DNA of 64,000 nt from Escherichia coli (GTDB lineage Bacteria; Pseudomonadota; Gammaproteobacteria; Enterobacterales; Enterobacteriaceae): assembly GCF_016903815.1 (NCBI RefSeq), contig NZ_CP069973.1; one strand, 5' to 3'. Positions 51,601 through 57,600 of this stretch are shown piece after piece. Position 1 is the first letter of the stretch. Each line of letters opens with the position of its first letter. Position numbers: made by a program.

Positions 51601-54600
51601 GGTAATCCTCCGGCATTTTCCCTGACACCGGACGGGCGACTGACGGCGAAAAATGCCGATATCAGCGGTAGCGTGAATGCGAACTCCGGGACGCTCAACA
51701 ACGTCACGATTAACGAGAACTGTCGGGTTCTGGGAAAACTGTCCGCGAACCAGATTGAAGGCGATCTCGTTAAAACAGTGGGCAAAGCTTTCCCCCGGGA
51801 CTCCCGTGCACCGGAGCGGTGGCCATCAGGGACCATTACCGTCAGGGTTTATGACGATCAGCCGTTTGACCGGCAAATTGTTATTCCAGCGGTGGCTTTC
51901 AGCGGTGCCAGACATGAACGGGAGAATAGCGATACTTATTCGTCATGCCGCCTGATAGTGAAGAAAAACGGGGCTGAAATTTATAACCGAACGGCTCTGG
52001 ATAATACTCTGATTTACACGGGTGTTATTGATATGCCTGCAGGCAGTGGCGTAATGACACTGGAGTTTTCTGTATCAGCATGGTGGGTAAATGGCTGGTA
52101 TCCCACAGCAAGTATCAGCGATTTGCTGGTTGTTGTGATGAAGAAAGCCACTGCAGGCATCACGATTAGCTGAATTTTATAACCCAGATACGGGCGCCAG
52201 AAATGGCGCCTTTTTTATTGCAGAAAAGCGAGAGGTAATTATGCGTAAATTATGTGCTGTTATTCTGTCCACAGTAGTCTGGCTGGTCGCCGCTGGTACG
52301 CCAGCGAGCGCAGCAGAGCATCAGTCCACACTAAGCGCCGGGTATCTTCAGACCCATACTGATATGCCCGGCAACGATGACCTGAAGGGCATTAACGTGA
52401 AATACCGTTATGAATTTACGGACACGCTGGGGCTGGTGACGTCATTCAGTTATGCCAATGCCAAAGATGAGCAAAAAACGCATTACAGCGATACCCGCTG
52501 GCATGAAGATTCAGTGCGTAACCGCTGGTTCAGCATGATGGCGGGGCCGTCTGTACGCGTGAATGAATGGTTCAGTGCTTATGCGATGGCAGGTGTGGCT
52601 TACAGCCGTGTTTCAACTTTTTCCGGGGATTATCTCCGCGTAACTGACAGCAAGGGGAAAACGCACGATGTGCTGACCGGAAGTGATGACGGTCGCCACA
52701 GCAACACGTCTCTGGCGTGGGGGGCTGGCGTGCAGTTTAACCCGACCGAATCCGTGGCCATTGATATTGCTTATGAAGGCTCCGGCAGTGGTGACTGGCG
52801 CACTGACGGTTTCATCGTGGGTGTCGGTTATAAATTCTGATTAGCCAGGTAACACAGTGTTATGACAGCCCGCCGGTTCAGGCGGGCTTTTTTGTGGAGT
52901 GGATATGGCAGCAGTAAAAATCTCAGGTGTGCTGAAAGATTGTGCGGGAAAACCAATACAGAACTGCACTATTCAACTGAAGGCAAAGCGTAACAGCACC
53001 ACGGTACTGGTGAACACGGTGGCCTCTGAAAATCCGGATGAAGCCGGGCGTTACAGCATGGATGTTGAGCATGGCCAGTACAGCGTCATCCTGCTGGTTG
53101 AAGGTTTTCCGCCTTCACATGCCGGGACCATTACCGTCTATGAAGGCTCCAGACCAGGTACGCTGAATGATTTTCTCGGTGCCATGACGGAAGAGGATGT
53201 CATGCCGGAGGCATTGCGTCGTTTTGAGGCAATGGTGGAAGAAGTGGCACGCAACGCCGAAGCCGCCTCTCAGAGCGCAGCGGCGGCAAAGAAATCCGAA
53301 ACTGCAGCGGCATCATCGAAGAACGCGGCGAAAACCTCAGAAACGAATGCAGCTAATAGTGCACAGGCGGCAGCGACCTCAAAGACTGCATCGGCAAACT
53401 CTGCGACAGCAGCCAAAAAATCAGAAACCAACGCGAAAAACAGTGAGACAGCCGCAAAGACGAGCGAAACCAACGCAAAGTCCAGCCAGACGGCAGCGAA
53501 AACCAGCGAAACGAATGCCAAAGCCAGTGAAACTGCGGCAAAAAACAGCCAGGCTGCAGCAGCTGAAAGCGAGAGCGCGGCAGCCGGTTCTGCGACTTCA
53601 GCAGCTGGATCAGCAACTGCTGCGGCTAACAGCCAGAAAGCTGCGAAGACGAGTGAAACTAACGCAAAGTCCAGCCAGACGGCAGCGAAGACCAGCGAAA
53701 CGAATGCCAAAGCCAGTGAAACTGCGGCGAAAAGCAGTCAGGATGCAGCGGCCCAAAGCGAGAGTGCCGCAGCCAGTTCTGCAAGCGCGGCGGCTGCTTC
53801 TGCCACTGCATCAGCTAACAGTCAAAAAGCAGCAAAAACCAGTGAAACCAACGCAAAGGTGAGCGAAACAGCGGCTGCGAACTCAGCGAAAGCATCGGCA
53901 GCAAGCCAGACGGCAGCTAAAGCAAGCGAAGATGCAGCCAGAGAGTACGCAAGCCAGGCTGCGGAGCCGTATAAATATGTCTTACAGCCGCTGCCTGATG
54001 TGTGGATACCATTTAACGATTCGCTGGATATGATTACGGGCTTTTCGCCATCATATAAAAAAATTGTTATTGGTGATGATGAAATAACGATGCCTGGCGA
54101 CAAGGTTGTTAAGTTTAAACGCGCATCAACTGCCACATATATCAATAAATCAGGCGTATTTAGTGTTGCTAAAATTGATGAGCCACGATTTGAAAAAGAA
54201 GGTTTATTGATTGAAGGACAGCGCACTAACTATTTTGTTAAATCCAATACTCCCGCTGAATGGACGAGTACCAGCAATATCGATAAAACTAATAATGGTG
54301 TTGATGAATTTGGTTTTTCATATGCCAAAATGCGAACAAAAGATAATATGACAGGACAATCATCTGCACTTAGTCTGCATACATGCAGTGCATCCCGGGG
54401 GATTGATGTTAGTGGCGATAATAAGTATTGCACTGTTTCATGCAGGGTTAAAGCTCCTGATGGTCTTCGTTGTCGTTTGCGTTTTGAAAAATACGATGGG
54501 TCGGTTTATACATTTTTAGGAGATGCTTATTTAACTTTCGGAACTCTGATAATAGAAAAAACTGGCGGGGCAGCCAATAGAATAGCAGCTACTGCAACTA

Positions 54601-57600
54601 AAGATCCGGTTACAGGGTGGATTTTCTATGAGGCAACTATAGAAGCTGTTGAAGGTGAAACCTTAATTGGCGCAATGATTCAGTATGCGCCGAAAAAAGG
54701 TGGTATAACTGAAGCGGGAGATTATATTTACCTTGCAACACCACAATTTGAAAACGGCGGATGTGCTTCATCTTTTGTTATTACGACAACTGCACCCGCA
54801 ACCCGCTCCAGTGATATGGTGACGATCCCAACTGAAAATAATATCTATAATAGACCGCTTACGTGTCTTGTCGAGGTTAATAGAAATTGGGGCGATATTC
54901 CTCCTAATGTAGCACCGCGTATTTTTGATTTTTCTGGTGTGCCACCTATTGAGTCAATTACATACGCTTTTAACACAACTGAGAAATATTACGGTCAGCT
55001 TTATATGCAAACTTATAAAGCGTCGACAAGTACTTACGTTTCTAGTGTGTTTGCTGGTCGAGCTGATGTTCGAAAATTCATTGGTGGTTTTAATATTTAT
55101 TCTGATGGTACTAAACGAGTAGTTTCTAACGGTGAGGCTACTAAAACTATGAAAACGGAGTGGACGGGCGTAAAAACACGGACCTTTATTCGAATTGGAG
55201 GTCAAGCCACATCGGGAACTCGTCATCTATTCGGCCATTTGAGAAATCTTCGTCTCTGGCATAAAGAATTAACTGATGCGCAAATGGGGGAGAGTATTAA
55301 ATGAAAGATTTAACACTCAAATTTGCAGACAGGGCCGACTTTTCGGCCTTTATGGAGAGCATTGGCTATTATGATGACGAGTCGATGCAGGATGATATTC
55401 TTATTGACGTGATAGGTAATGTGTACAAAGAAACCGGAGAACTTACTGAAGATGGCGAGCCGGTATGTGTTAAGGAGGACGGATATTTTGTAAATGTGCG
55501 CATCATTAATGATTCGCAAATATCGTCATTATTCGATGAACACGCGGTTGCTGTTGAGCATCAACTCCGTAGCTGGATGTGAGGAAGAAAAATGGCTACA
55601 TCGACAGTAATTCCTGATGACATCAAAACGCTAAAGGGAGATGTCAGTAAGGCAAAGGAAGATATTTCCTCAATTAACGTAAAAGTATCAACGCTTCAGA
55701 CTGATATGGACAGTGCAAAGCAGGATATCAGTACCAGATACACAAAAACAGAAGTGGATAATAAGCTGAAAAACAAAGTGGAAGTGAACGATCTGGAAAG
55801 TGGTCGTTATGGCGGAGATTTTTACCCGCTGACTGGCCGTGAAGCGTTTTATTTATGGGGATTGGGCACAACTACAGCGGCGGCAAATCTTTATCTTAAT
55901 CCTGACCCTGCAATTTCGTCTGTGCTGCGGTCAACATCGTCTATCCGCTATAAACATTCAGTAGAGACGATAGATTCAGAGCACGCCGATCTCATTTTCA
56001 GGATGCGCCCTGTGTGGTACAGGTCGCAATGCGAAAATGACAGGCGTGACTGGGGATTCTATGGATTGATTGCCGAGGAAGTAGGAGAAATTGCCCCTCA
56101 GTTTGTTCACTGGCGACCAGCCAACGAAGATGATGCACCGGAAACCATTTCCAGCAATGGCCTTGTTGCCGAAGGTGTAATGTACGAACGTCTGGTTGTT
56201 CCACTGATTCACCATATCCAGAAGCTGACTGAAAGAGTTGATGAACTTGAGTCAGAATTAAAGTTGTTATCCGTTTCCCGAAGCGATATCGGATAAAGGA
56301 GGCGTAATGGATATAACACCTTTCCTTCATGCACTTTGTGCTGTGGCTGCGCAGGTACTGGTTGGTCTTTTTACCGGAAACTGGGCTTACGGGGCGATAG
56401 CTGGTTGTACGTTCTTCATTGCGCGTGAACATACCCAGGCAGAATATCGCTGGATTGAAATGTTCGGGCATGGCAAGCGAATGAATATGCCGTGGTGGGG
56501 CGGTTTTGATCCGCGTGCGTGGGATGTGGCAAGCCTGATGGATTTTGCTGTGCCGGTGGTGGCGTGTCTGCTGGTCTGGCTGTTGGTTAATCGTGGGTGA
56601 AAAAAGGTGAGCTGTATATGCAACGGAGGAAGAAACCTCGTTGCGGGAAGCCTGGAAGAAGTATCGGGTGTTGCTGAACCGTGTTGATACGTCAACTGCA
56701 CAGATATTGAATGGCCAGCACTGCCGTAGGGTAAAACATATAAATTCTATAATTAGATGTATCTTTCCATTTACGGCAAGGAAGGGGGCTTGGAAGACGT
56801 AAGGCATCTCACACCGAGATTATTTTTTATATGTCAGGTGTCTGAAGTTTTGCTTTGGCTCTTAAAATGGTTTGCCGCGAGGTTTTGAATTCCCGGGCAA
56901 TGGCACTTATACTTACACCTGACTTAATCCGTTCGAATACCACCTGTTTCTGTTCTTCATTTAACACAGGTGGTCGACCAAAACGTTTCCCTGCGCCCCG
57001 GGCTCTTACTATCCCGGAATGAGTGCGTTCAAGTAAAAGGTCTCGTTCAAATTCAGCGACTGCTGAAATTACTTGCATCATCATTTTTCCTGTTGGACTG
57101 GTCAGGTCAATGCCCCCCCAATGCTAAGCAATGCACTCTGATACCTGTTTCGGTCAGTTGTTCCACTGTTTTCCTGATATCCATTGCATTACAACCAAGG
57201 CGATCCAGTTTTGTCACAATCAATTGATCACCACATTTCAGGCGAGCAAGCAACCGGTTAAAACCAGGACGCTCACTGGTTGCTGCTGAGCCGCTAATGT
57301 GTTCTTCGATTATTTGCTGAGGTTTGATTTTAAAACCTGCACTTTCGATTTCCCGGCGTTGATTTTCGGTGGTCTGATCCAGCGTTGATATCCGACAGTA
57401 AGCAAAAATTCGAGACATAGTGAGACTCTATACGAAATTGGTGCTCATATCATAATGCATCTCAGAAAATAATTTTGATTATTTTTGTGCATGTTTGTAT
57501 GTACACGTTCGAAAATAAACGAATGCGTATGCAACCCCGTAATTTTGGTGAGACCCAAAATCGATTTTGTGAAAAATGGCTTTAACTCGGTTTGTTTTTC

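What the first reader, a model, noticed from the sequence alone, without database searches (positions are those of the whole stretch)
52899..56600. Variable host-range region: repeat-containing tail fibre with a foreign-looking C-terminal domain, an orphan chaperone-domain protein and a small membrane protein
The stf gene contains a tandem duplication of about 189 bp (53454-53831), and its C-terminal third appears AT-richer than the rest. It is followed by a 234-aa protein whose C-terminus resembles the self-cleaving intramolecular chaperone (S74-like) domain normally fused to the end of long fibres, and by a 97-aa protein with three predicted TM helices. This pattern suggests past receptor-binding-domain swapping that left a fibre 3' remnant, and the membrane protein could be a receptor-masking or exclusion factor.
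Basis: partly seen in the sequence, partly recalled or inferred. Interest (0 to 1): 0.5.

Follow-up and report, generated by a model that had tools for sequence, protein, structure and literature searches.

The report
Modular lambdoid side-tail-fibre gene cassette

Summary
The sequence features are real. Their interpretation is only partly right.

**What is confirmed**
- The 189-bp tandem duplication.
- The drop in G+C, which covers the distal 56% of stf, not a third.
- The S74 domain.
- A helical membrane protein.

- A 93-aa gene (55301-55582) lies between stf and the 234-aa gene.

**What the region is**
- It is a four-gene operon, stf-p93-p234-p97, at the end of the late genes of a Rac-type prophage.
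- It is identical in many E. coli genomes and about 98% identical in the plaque-forming phage PhiR49_1.

**The four products**
- **Stf distal region:** homologous to the head-spike fibre of the Rhodobacter gene transfer agent.
- **p93:** sits next to fibre genes in 181 phage records.
- **p234:** not an orphan remnant.
  - Full-length homologues (55-60% identity) hold the same position in virulent T1-like phages.
  - dN/dS is 0.21-0.29, and the Ser116/Lys121 pair is invariant.
  - Its first 32 residues recur on longer S74 proteins at the same locus.
  - I read it as a short second fibre subunit.
- **p97:** belongs to a widespread uncharacterised phage family. It stays 93-98% identical while the receptor-binding domain varies, so its role in exclusion is untested.

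**The true relic**
- The real leftover is a 37-codon tfa fragment (56620-56730) beside a pin pseudogene.

**Verdict:** an ordinary mosaic module, of modest interest.

The parts
52867..52888 (+). Terminator-like hairpin between lom and stf
   Evidence: 8-bp stem with 7 G-C pairs, followed by a T run. Sequence read.
52905..55304 (+). stf, side tail fibre. 799 aa from ATG 52905; the mechanical ORF starts at GTG 52899 and gives 801 aa.
   Evidence: ORF list. GGAG lies 5 nt before ATG 52905. phrog_1419 matches full length at 1425 bits. The frame is uninterrupted although RefSeq splits the gene in two.
52911..53300 (+). Stf N-terminal tail-attachment domain (residues 5-134)
   Evidence: Pfam PF08400, 218.6 bits. 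Residues 5-97 match PDB 9e7m/9mgh 'Tail fiber protein' at E 1.2e-47.
53439..53858 (+). 189-bp (63-aa) tandem duplication inside the Ala/Ser/Thr/Lys-rich repeat shaft
   Evidence: TRF: period 189, 2.2 copies, 83% matches, score 595. Present in 2G7b, absent from IdasGreatGrand and ev243.
53970..55304 (+). AT-rich distal region of Stf (residues ~358-801). Residues 437-637 carry the GTA head-spike-fibre domain (54207-54809).
   Evidence: G+C 0.40 against 0.55 upstream. NCBIfam NF048003, 58.1 bits against a cut-off of 36. A profile of 10 homologues hits PDB 6tb9 Rcc01080 at E 1.4e-13.
55301..55582 (+). p93, an acidic 93-aa protein that partners with the fibre.
   Evidence: ATGA overlap with the stf stop. 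phrog_1361. Homologues lie next to fibre genes in 181 phage records. Divergence tracks that of the Stf distal region. AF2 pLDDT 84.7.
55592..56296 (+). p234, a short second fibre protein. It has an N-terminal peptide, about six heptads (55619-55744), a small pre-cleavage region and an S74 self-cleaving chaperone domain (55937-56293). Ser116 is the codon at 55937-55939.
   Evidence: Pfam PF13884 above its cut-off. PDB 8hqz and 7dc3. S116 and K121 invariant. Heptads. dN/dS 0.21-0.29. Homologues in Drexlerviridae.
56307..56600 (+). p97, a small inner-membrane protein of an uncharacterised phage family
   Evidence: phrog_1443. 344 cluster representatives. R40, E41, Q44, W72 and P83 invariant. AF2 pLDDT 97.7 with three helices.
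56620..56730 (+). 37-codon 3' fragment of a tail fibre assembly gene (tfa). This is the real relic of an older fibre module.
   Evidence: RefSeq: 'tail fiber assembly protein, incomplete, missing N-terminus'. Translation. K-12 has an intact tfaQ at this position.
56827..57418 (-). pin-type invertase pseudogene, split into two ORFs
   Evidence: Resolvase and HTH_7 hits fall on two separate ORFs. RefSeq: pinQ, frameshifted.

Best explanation
Window 52.9-56.6 kb is the host-recognition module at the end of the late operon of a Rac-type lambdoid prophage. It has four tightly packed genes: stf, p93, p234 and p97.

**Stf**
- Shown: it has a lambda-type N-terminal domain that matches the tail fibre protein in PDB 9e7m.
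- Shown: it has a repetitive Ala/Ser/Thr/Lys-rich shaft whose length varies by a 63-aa unit.
- Shown: its ~445-aa distal region is homologous to the head-spike fibre of the Rhodobacter gene transfer agent.
- Inferred: the distal region binds a surface polysaccharide such as O-antigen or capsule and speeds adsorption.

**p93**
- Shown: it is adjacent to the fibre gene, diverges along with the distal fibre region, and has no Tfa signature.
- Inferred: it is the cognate assembly factor or bound partner of this fibre type.

**p234**
- Shown: it has a conserved 32-residue N-terminus, about six heptads, a conserved pre-cleavage stretch, and an S74 domain with its Ser-Lys pair intact.
- Inferred: it trimerises with the help of its own C-terminal chaperone domain and cuts itself before Ser116. 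The 12.6-kDa N-terminal piece then docks through its N-terminus onto the fibre as a short branch or distal piece. This would resemble LtfB on LtfA in phage DT57C.

**p97**
- Shown: it is a small helical membrane protein with a conserved R-E-x-x-Q-A-E motif.
- Inferred: it acts on the cell envelope, most likely as an accessory exclusion-type factor rather than a virion or assembly part.

**Evolution of the module**
- Shown: recombination at conserved junctions swaps the receptor-binding core of stf and the body of the third gene independently.
- The junctions are the Stf shaft, the end of stf plus p93 plus the first codons of the third gene, and p97.
For: **Operon layout**
- The stf stop overlaps the p93 start (ATGA).
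- 9-nt and 10-nt gaps with GAGG/GGAGG sites precede p234 and p97.
- No promoter-like site lies before p97.

**Same module in free phages**
- PhiR49_1 carries the same four genes at 98% identity. IdasGreatGrand and PhiR55_1 also carry them.

**Stf domains**

**p93**
- Homologues sit next to fibre genes in 181 phage records. These span lambdoid, T1-like, Dhillonvirus, Seuratvirus, T5-like and rV5-like phages.
- Its identity tracks that of the fibre. p93 is 41-50% identical where Stf is 44-49%, and 80% where Stf is 68%.

**p234**
- S74 is supported by Pfam and PDB, and S116 and K121 are invariant.
- Homologues of 55-60% identity occupy the same third position in KarlJaspers and vB_EcoS_XY3.
- dN/dS is 0.21-0.29.
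- The heptads show I/V/M at position 2 and L/A/I at position 5. PhiR55_1 has exactly one heptad fewer.
- The N-terminal 32 residues are 72-79% identical to those of the third gene of 2G7b and PhiR46_1 (345/346 aa). The bodies of those proteins are unrelated but also end in S74 (52 bits). The N-terminus also matches the 510-aa third gene of KurtStettler.
- Precedent: in DT57C the second fibre protein LtfB has a conserved 45-aa N-terminus and is inferred to be held by LtfA. Both proteins carry S74 (PMC4728585).
- BASEL notes that lateral fibres of small siphoviruses may consist of one or several proteins (PMC8594841).

**Mosaic breakpoints**

**p97**
Against: - No experiment or multimer model shows that p234 joins the virion or where it docks. 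Its mature part is only 115 residues and has no obvious receptor-binding domain.
- The shared N-terminus could reflect a recombination junction rather than a docking site.
- Phage 21, Lambda_2E9 and ev243 have the same fibre type and p93 but no third gene. p234 is therefore dispensable for that fibre.
- In several T1-like phages the match to p234 comes in two pieces, annotated as two genes. This suggests loss is tolerated.
- The p97 searches found nothing specific.
- The tail gene I of this prophage is frameshifted, so this copy may not make particles.
Confidence: 0.55

Rival explanations
1. One reading: p234 is a non-functional or vestigial 3' end of an older, longer Stf, stranded when a foreign receptor-binding cassette was inserted upstream.
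For: - PHROG family 3299 (1385-aa profile) aligns residues 1-227 of p234 to its positions 1147-1384, and part of the Stf shaft to 215-379. Long proteins ending in this sequence therefore exist.
- G+C changes within the gene, from 0.39 to 0.48.
- The P22-like phage Gally keeps only the last 94 nt of such a gene upstream of its p97 homologue.
Against: - The full-length ORF has a conserved start and a good ribosome-binding site.
- dN/dS is 0.21-0.29.
- The catalytic Ser and Lys are invariant.
- 47 phage records carry at least 80% of it. In the T1-like and lambdoid genomes inspected it holds the same third position.
- Length changes are whole heptads.
- An allele series shares the same N-terminus.
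Confidence: 0.1
2. p234 is a chaperone acting in trans. Its S74 domain would help the Stf fibre, which has no S74 domain of its own, to trimerise. This is what the database label 'putative lateral tail fiber chaperone' implies.
For: - BASEL and other annotators use that label.
- Stf has no S74 domain and no Tfa gene follows it.
- p234 is always encoded just downstream of the fibre gene and p93.
Against: - Phage 21, Lambda_2E9 and ev243 form plaques with the same fibre type and no p234.
- From established knowledge of endosialidase and T5 pb1, known S74 domains act within their own chain.
- p234 has its own coiled-coil and pre-cleavage segment as a substrate.
- Longer alleles place a ~190-aa domain between the N-terminus and S74, the usual in-cis layout.
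Confidence: 0.15
3. p97 is a superinfection-exclusion or receptor-masking factor carried as cargo next to the fibre genes.
For: - It is a small membrane protein.
- It is encoded after the receptor-binding genes in three tail types:
  - lambdoid siphoviruses;
  - after the tailspike and before int in the P22-like phage Gally;
  - between the fibre assembly gene and the sheath gene in Halomonas myovirus phiHAP-1.
- From my own knowledge, these positions hold conversion or exclusion genes in P22 (gtrABC) and P2 (Z/fun).
- Also from my own knowledge, T5 Llp, Cor and HK97 gp15 set precedents.
Against: - It matches no PADLOC or Pfam family.
- It has no promoter of its own and appears co-transcribed with late genes.
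- It stays 93-98% identical while the receptor-binding domain diverges. Any exclusion it provides is therefore not receptor-specific.
- Partial homologues occur in large phages of 150-240 kb that I take to be virulent.
- Distant family members lie beside Dam or among small genes, away from fibres.
Confidence: 0.3
4. p97 is a conserved tail-fibre assembly component.
For: It is tightly linked to fibre or spike genes in E. coli lambdoid phages and in phiHAP-1, where its start overlaps the tfa stop.
Against: - It is membrane-embedded, whereas fibres assemble in the cytoplasm (established knowledge).
- It is absent from the T1-like and Seuratvirus versions of the same cassette.
- Distant members are not next to fibre genes.
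Confidence: 0.05

Closest known systems
Side tail fibre module of Ur-lambda (stf-tfa)
   Same: - The N-terminal attachment domain is the same: PF08400, and a close match to PDB 9e7m.
- The module sits after J and lom at the end of the late operon.
- The shaft is repetitive.
   Different: - The distal half is unrelated to lambda's and resembles the GTA head-spike fibre.
- No Tfa (Caudo_TAP) chaperone gene follows; only a 37-codon tfa relic remains further downstream.
- Three other genes (p93, p234, p97) follow instead.
Branched two-protein L-shaped tail fibres of T5-like phages DT57C and DT571/2 (LtfA/LtfB; PMC4728585)
   Same: - This is also a two-fibre-gene locus in a siphovirus.
- The second protein has a conserved short N-terminus and a C-terminal S74 self-cleaving domain.
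- The p234 S74 region matches the DT57C-type fibre chain 8hqz.
   Different: - The first protein here (Stf) has no S74 domain.
- A 93-aa gene lies between the two fibre genes.
- The mature second protein is only ~115 residues, with no evident receptor-binding domain.
- Attachment has not been shown.
S74 intramolecular chaperone domains of endosialidase (K1F) and T5 pb1
   Same: - The Pfam family is the same.
- The Ser-x4-Lys pair is present.
- The domain is C-terminal and ends in a helix.
   Different: Here the domain makes up half of a 234-aa stand-alone protein, rather than the tail of a fibre or spike of about 1000 aa or more.
Head-spike fibre Rcc01080 of the Rhodobacter capsulatus gene transfer agent (PDB 6tb9)
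   Same: Stf residues ~405-647 are homologous to it: profile E 1.4e-13, and NCBIfam NF048003 above its cut-off.
   Different: - Here the domain sits at the end of a tail fibre, not on the head.
- A further C-terminal domain of about 160 aa follows it.
Small phage membrane or envelope proteins encoded near receptor-binding genes: HK97 gp15, T5 Llp, Cor, P2 Z/fun (from my own knowledge)
   Same: p97 is also small, envelope-located and encoded next to the receptor-binding genes.
   Different: - No sequence or fold similarity was found.
- p97 has no lipoprotein signal.
- No function has been tested.

Membership tests
Peptidase S74 / intramolecular chaperone (p234) | Match to the family profile above the curated threshold | tested here: met
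   PF13884 scores 27.3 bits against a cut-off of 22, residues 116-172. PDB 8hqz at E 5e-7 and MyRF 7dc3 at E 0.023.
Peptidase S74 / intramolecular chaperone (p234) | Catalytic Ser and Lys five residues apart | tested here: met
   S116 and K121 are invariant in a 30-sequence alignment.
Peptidase S74 / intramolecular chaperone (p234) | Self-cleavage and release of the C-terminal domain after trimer folding | not testable with these tools
   Needs protein expression or virion mass spectrometry.
Lambda-type side tail fibre (Stf) | N-terminal tail-attachment domain | tested here: met
   PF08400, 218.6 bits. PDB 9e7m at E 1.2e-47.
Lambda-type side tail fibre (Stf) | Cognate Tfa (Caudo_TAP) chaperone gene immediately downstream | tested here: not met
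   p93, p234 and p97 give no Tfa hit in Pfam or NCBIfam. Only a 37-codon tfa fragment remains at 56620-56730.
GTA head-spike-fibre domain (Stf distal region) | Match to NF048003 and to the solved Rcc01080 chain | tested here: met
   58.1 bits against a cut-off of 36. Profile E 1.4e-13 to 6tb9.
Tail fibre assembly chaperones (p93) | Sequence or fold similarity to a known Tfa-type chaperone | tested here: not met
Branched two-protein lateral fibre (LtfA/LtfB type) | Second fibre protein with a conserved N-terminal segment shared among alleles with different bodies | tested here: met
   Residues 1-32 are 72-79% identical to the third genes of 2G7b and PhiR46_1, whose remaining sequence is unrelated.
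Branched two-protein lateral fibre (LtfA/LtfB type) | Physical attachment of the second protein to the first | not testable with these tools
   Only single-chain structure prediction was available.
Known anti-phage defence or exclusion proteins (p97) | Match to a described defence or exclusion family | tested here: not met
   No PADLOC hit. No Pfam hit above threshold among 55 family members. No specific structural neighbour.

The most novel reading that the evidence does not exclude
Two uncharacterised families could each turn out to be something new.

- **p234-type proteins** may be minimal self-cleaving mini-fibres. They would plug into side or lateral fibres of lambdoid, T1-like and Seuratvirus phages through a shared ~30-residue N-terminal adaptor. 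That would make these fibres branched and the third gene a swappable second specificity slot.
- **p97** may define a widespread phage inner-membrane effector family. It has 344 cluster representatives, an invariant R-E-x-x-Q motif followed by near-invariant A-E, and a near-perfect AF2 model. It could have a general role, not tied to one receptor, in exclusion or envelope modification.
Probability: 0.25. Interest if true: 0.55.

Novelty: new member of a known kind. Interest (0 to 1): 0.3.

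Why it matters
Side tail fibres set the host range of lambda-like phages and of engineered lambda delivery particles.

- **Portable unit.** This fibre type travels as a fibre end plus p93, with or without an S74 mini-fibre, and has defined recombination junctions. That tells engineers which genes must be moved together.
- **Unstudied families.** It also flags three abundant E. coli phage gene families that nobody has characterised.

For genome annotation there are three corrections:
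- p234 should not be called a remnant or simply a chaperone.
- stf is intact in these genomes even though RefSeq splits it.
- The true relics are the tfa fragment and the pin pseudogene.

Tried and rejected
- **AlphaFold database library.** It was not available on the machine.
- **A separate promoter for p97.** None was found, and the number of promoter-like sites in the region is no higher than in shuffled sequence.
- **p97 always next to fibre genes.** Rejected after metagenomic contexts showed Dam and unrelated small genes as neighbours.
- **Literature.**
  - The two BASEL papers describe variable lateral-fibre loci but say nothing about the stand-alone S74 gene.
  - Two preprints on engineered lambda Stf had no relevant text.
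  - A search for the ECOR13 phage set found no paper.
  - 'Ybl63', a UniRef name for p97, appears in no paper.
- **Structure of p234.** Not predicted. The two prediction jobs went to p97 and p93, because profile searches had already settled the S74 question.

Full report
**Where the window comes from**

The 3.7-kb region is 100% identical to many complete E. coli chromosomes, for example strain 7/2 (NZ_CP023820). At least 80% of it is present in 196 of 5,426 genomes. RefSeq annotation and my ORF list place it at the end of a lambdoid prophage, after K, a frameshifted I, J (48694-52173) and lom (52241-52840). The prophage starts at ttcA/intR and carries Rac-type early genes.

**Checking the observation**

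- *Tandem duplication.* It is real: period 189, 2.2 copies, 83% matches, no indels, score 595, at 53439-53858. It encodes a 63-aa unit inside a longer 7/14-aa periodic Ala/Ser/Thr/Lys-rich shaft.
- *Copy number.* Phage 2G7b has 2.3 copies. IdasGreatGrand and ev243 show no 189-bp array, and IdasGreatGrand is exactly 189 bp shorter in this stretch.
- *G+C drop.* It is real but larger than described: 0.55 over 52899-53950 and 0.40 over 53951-55304. That covers the distal 56% of the gene. Low G+C continues through the next ORF (0.42) and the first 70 codons of the 234-aa ORF (0.39). It then recovers to 0.48 and to 0.53 in the 97-aa gene.
- *Gene packing.* All four genes are close together, with good ribosome-binding sites. 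No promoter-like site lies before the last gene.
- *stf start.* The likely start is ATG 52905.

**The fibre (Stf)**

- Residues 5-134 are the lambda-type N-terminal domain: PF08400 at 218.6 bits, and E 1.2e-47 to the tail fibre protein chain of PDB 9e7m.
- The distal ~445 residues form a conserved multi-domain block. It begins at a near-invariant motif, QPLPDVWIPFNDSL.
- Residues 437-637 match NCBIfam 'GTA_spike_fiber' above its cut-off.
- A profile of ten homologues hits the solved head-spike fibre Rcc01080 of the Rhodobacter gene transfer agent at E 1.4e-13.
- Polysaccharide binding by this region is my inference, not a result.
- RefSeq splits stf into a pseudogene and a 686-aa CDS, yet the frame is intact.

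**p93**

- No library names it.
- Its homologues lie against the 3' end of fibre genes in 181 phage records. These include lambdoid, T1-like, Dhillonvirus, Seuratvirus, T5-like and rV5-like phages.
- 351 database proteins match, and all of those listed are labelled hypothetical.
- Its divergence follows that of the fibre's distal region.
- AF2 gives a small alpha/beta fold (pLDDT 84.7) with no informative structural neighbour.
- I take it to be the cognate assembly factor or bound partner of this fibre type. That rests on position and co-divergence only.

**p234**

- *S74 domain.* The similarity passes Pfam's curated threshold. It is echoed by a T5-like fibre and by MyRF in PDB. Ser116 and Lys121, five residues apart, are invariant in 30 homologues.
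- *Not an orphan.* tblastn finds it in 62 phage records, 47 of them covering at least 80% of it. Most are virulent T1-like Drexlerviridae at 55-60% identity.
- *Same gene order elsewhere.* In KarlJaspers and vB_EcoS_XY3 the order is lateral fibre, a 92-aa gene, then the S74 gene. The fibre carries the same distal region at 45-56% identity, and the 92-aa gene is 50-54% identical to p93.
- *Selection.* dN/dS against three lambdoid homologues is 0.21-0.29, similar to the neighbouring genes.
- *Coiled coil.* Residues 10-51 form six heptads with I/V/M at position 2 and L/A/I at position 5. PhiR55_1 differs by exactly one heptad.
- *Shared N-terminus.* The first 32 residues recur at 72-79% identity at the start of other third-position genes. 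These are the 345/346-aa proteins of 2G7b and PhiR46_1, whose bodies are unrelated but which also carry S74 (52 bits). A 510-aa protein of the Seuratvirus KurtStettler also matches.
- *Conclusion.* The locus therefore holds an allele series of S74 fibre proteins with a common N-terminus, and p234 is the shortest. Self-cleavage before Ser116 would leave a 12.6-kDa coiled-coil piece.
- *Precedent.* This resembles the LtfA/LtfB arrangement of DT57C. There a conserved N-terminus on the second protein is thought to mediate attachment to the first (PMC4728585). Docking here is inferred, not shown.
- *Against a trans-chaperone role.* Phage 21, Lambda_2E9 and ev243 have the same fibre type and p93 but no third gene.

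**Mosaic structure**

Compared with phage 2G7b:

| Window coordinates | Similarity to 2G7b | Content |
|---|---|---|
| 52000-54232 | 95% identical | lom, Stf N-terminus, shaft and start of the distal region |
| 54233-55185 | diverged | receptor-binding core of stf |
| 55186-55635 | 90% identical | end of stf, p93, first codons of the third gene |
| 55636-56305 | unrelated | body of the third gene |
| 56306-56716 | 97% identical | p97 and downstream |

Two cassettes therefore swap independently between conserved junctions. The low G+C of the cassette matches that of the T1-like loci (0.43-0.44).

**p97**

- *Conservation.* It is 93-98% identical across lambdoid phages whose fibres have diverged.
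- *Distribution.*
  - It occurs in phage 21.
  - In P22-like Lederbergvirus phages it lies after the tailspike gene and before int.
  - In Halomonas myovirus phiHAP-1 it lies between the fibre assembly gene and the sheath gene.
- *Family size.* The family has 344 cluster representatives at E no higher than 1e-3.
- *Conserved residues.* R40, E41, Q44, W72 and P83 are invariant. H8, A45, E46 and R58 are nearly so.
- *Structure.* AF2 is very confident (pLDDT 97.7), with helices 4-23, 26-53 and 74-96.
- *Function searches.* No library or fold search suggests a function.
- *Other contexts.* Distant members sit beside Dam or among small genes, not fibre genes. It is therefore not an obligate fibre component.
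- *Reading.* An exclusion-type role is plausible from position and precedent, but untested. Its constancy across receptor-binding alleles argues against masking of a specific receptor.

**The real relics**

Directly after p97 lies a 37-codon 3' fragment of tfa (56620-56730), followed by a frameshifted pin invertase gene. In K-12 the intact tfaQ and stfQ occupy that place. The leftover, however, is the tfa fragment, not p234.

**Verdict**

This is a normal, mosaic lambdoid host-recognition module. The 'orphan remnant' reading is rejected, and the exclusion idea remains open. Interest is modest. What remains of value are three abundant uncharacterised families (p93, the p234 type and p97) and the defined cassette junctions.

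Noticed in passing
window 8623-10845 and 56620-60037: The prophage is bounded on the left by ttcA/intR, the Rac site. On the right it is bounded by pinQ, ydfK, ynfT and a truncated ydfJ, which is the Qin flank. That right flank is in the opposite orientation to K-12. This fits a recombination between Rac-type and Qin-type tail-fibre/pin regions that inverted the roughly 200-kb terminus-proximal segment relative to K-12. I did not look for the reciprocal junction.
   Followed up: partly
window 47993-48633: Tail assembly gene I is split into two ORFs (47993-48253 and 48250-48633), and RefSeq calls it frameshifted. This prophage copy may not be able to build tails, although the fibre module itself is intact.
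   Followed up: no
window 52905-55304: RefSeq annotates stf as an N-terminal pseudogene fragment plus a separate 686-aa 'phage head spike fiber domain-containing protein'. The reading frame is continuous, so this looks like an annotation artefact.
   Followed up: yes
L013 4907-5243 (Escherichia phage Gally) against window 56213-56549: The P22-like phage Gally carries its p97 homologue together with the last 94 nt of a p234-type gene, in the gap after its tailspike gene. This suggests p97 was acquired from a lambdoid phage as a block.
   Followed up: partly
L018 4501-6033 (Escherichia phage KurtStettler): Its third-position protein (510 aa) has the S74 domain in the middle (residues 208-259). 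About 250 residues rich in Gly, Gln and Cys follow it, an unusual layout for a domain that normally ends the protein.
   Followed up: no
window 52192-52211 and 52867-52888: Strong terminator-like hairpins flank lom on both sides. lom therefore looks like a self-contained insert, and stf expression would need read-through from the late promoter.
   Followed up: no
L016 5397-5494 and 6439-6513 (phage 2G7b); also L004 and L002: Free phages carry two copies of the tfa 3' fragment, flanking a methyltransferase gene on the opposite strand downstream of p97. In the window only one copy remains and the methyltransferase is absent.
   Followed up: no
window 3396-5405 and 28852-30309: An IS1 element interrupts dgcM upstream of the prophage. 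As in K-12 Rac, the potassium transporter gene trkG sits inside the prophage, between the lysis and packaging genes.
   Followed up: no
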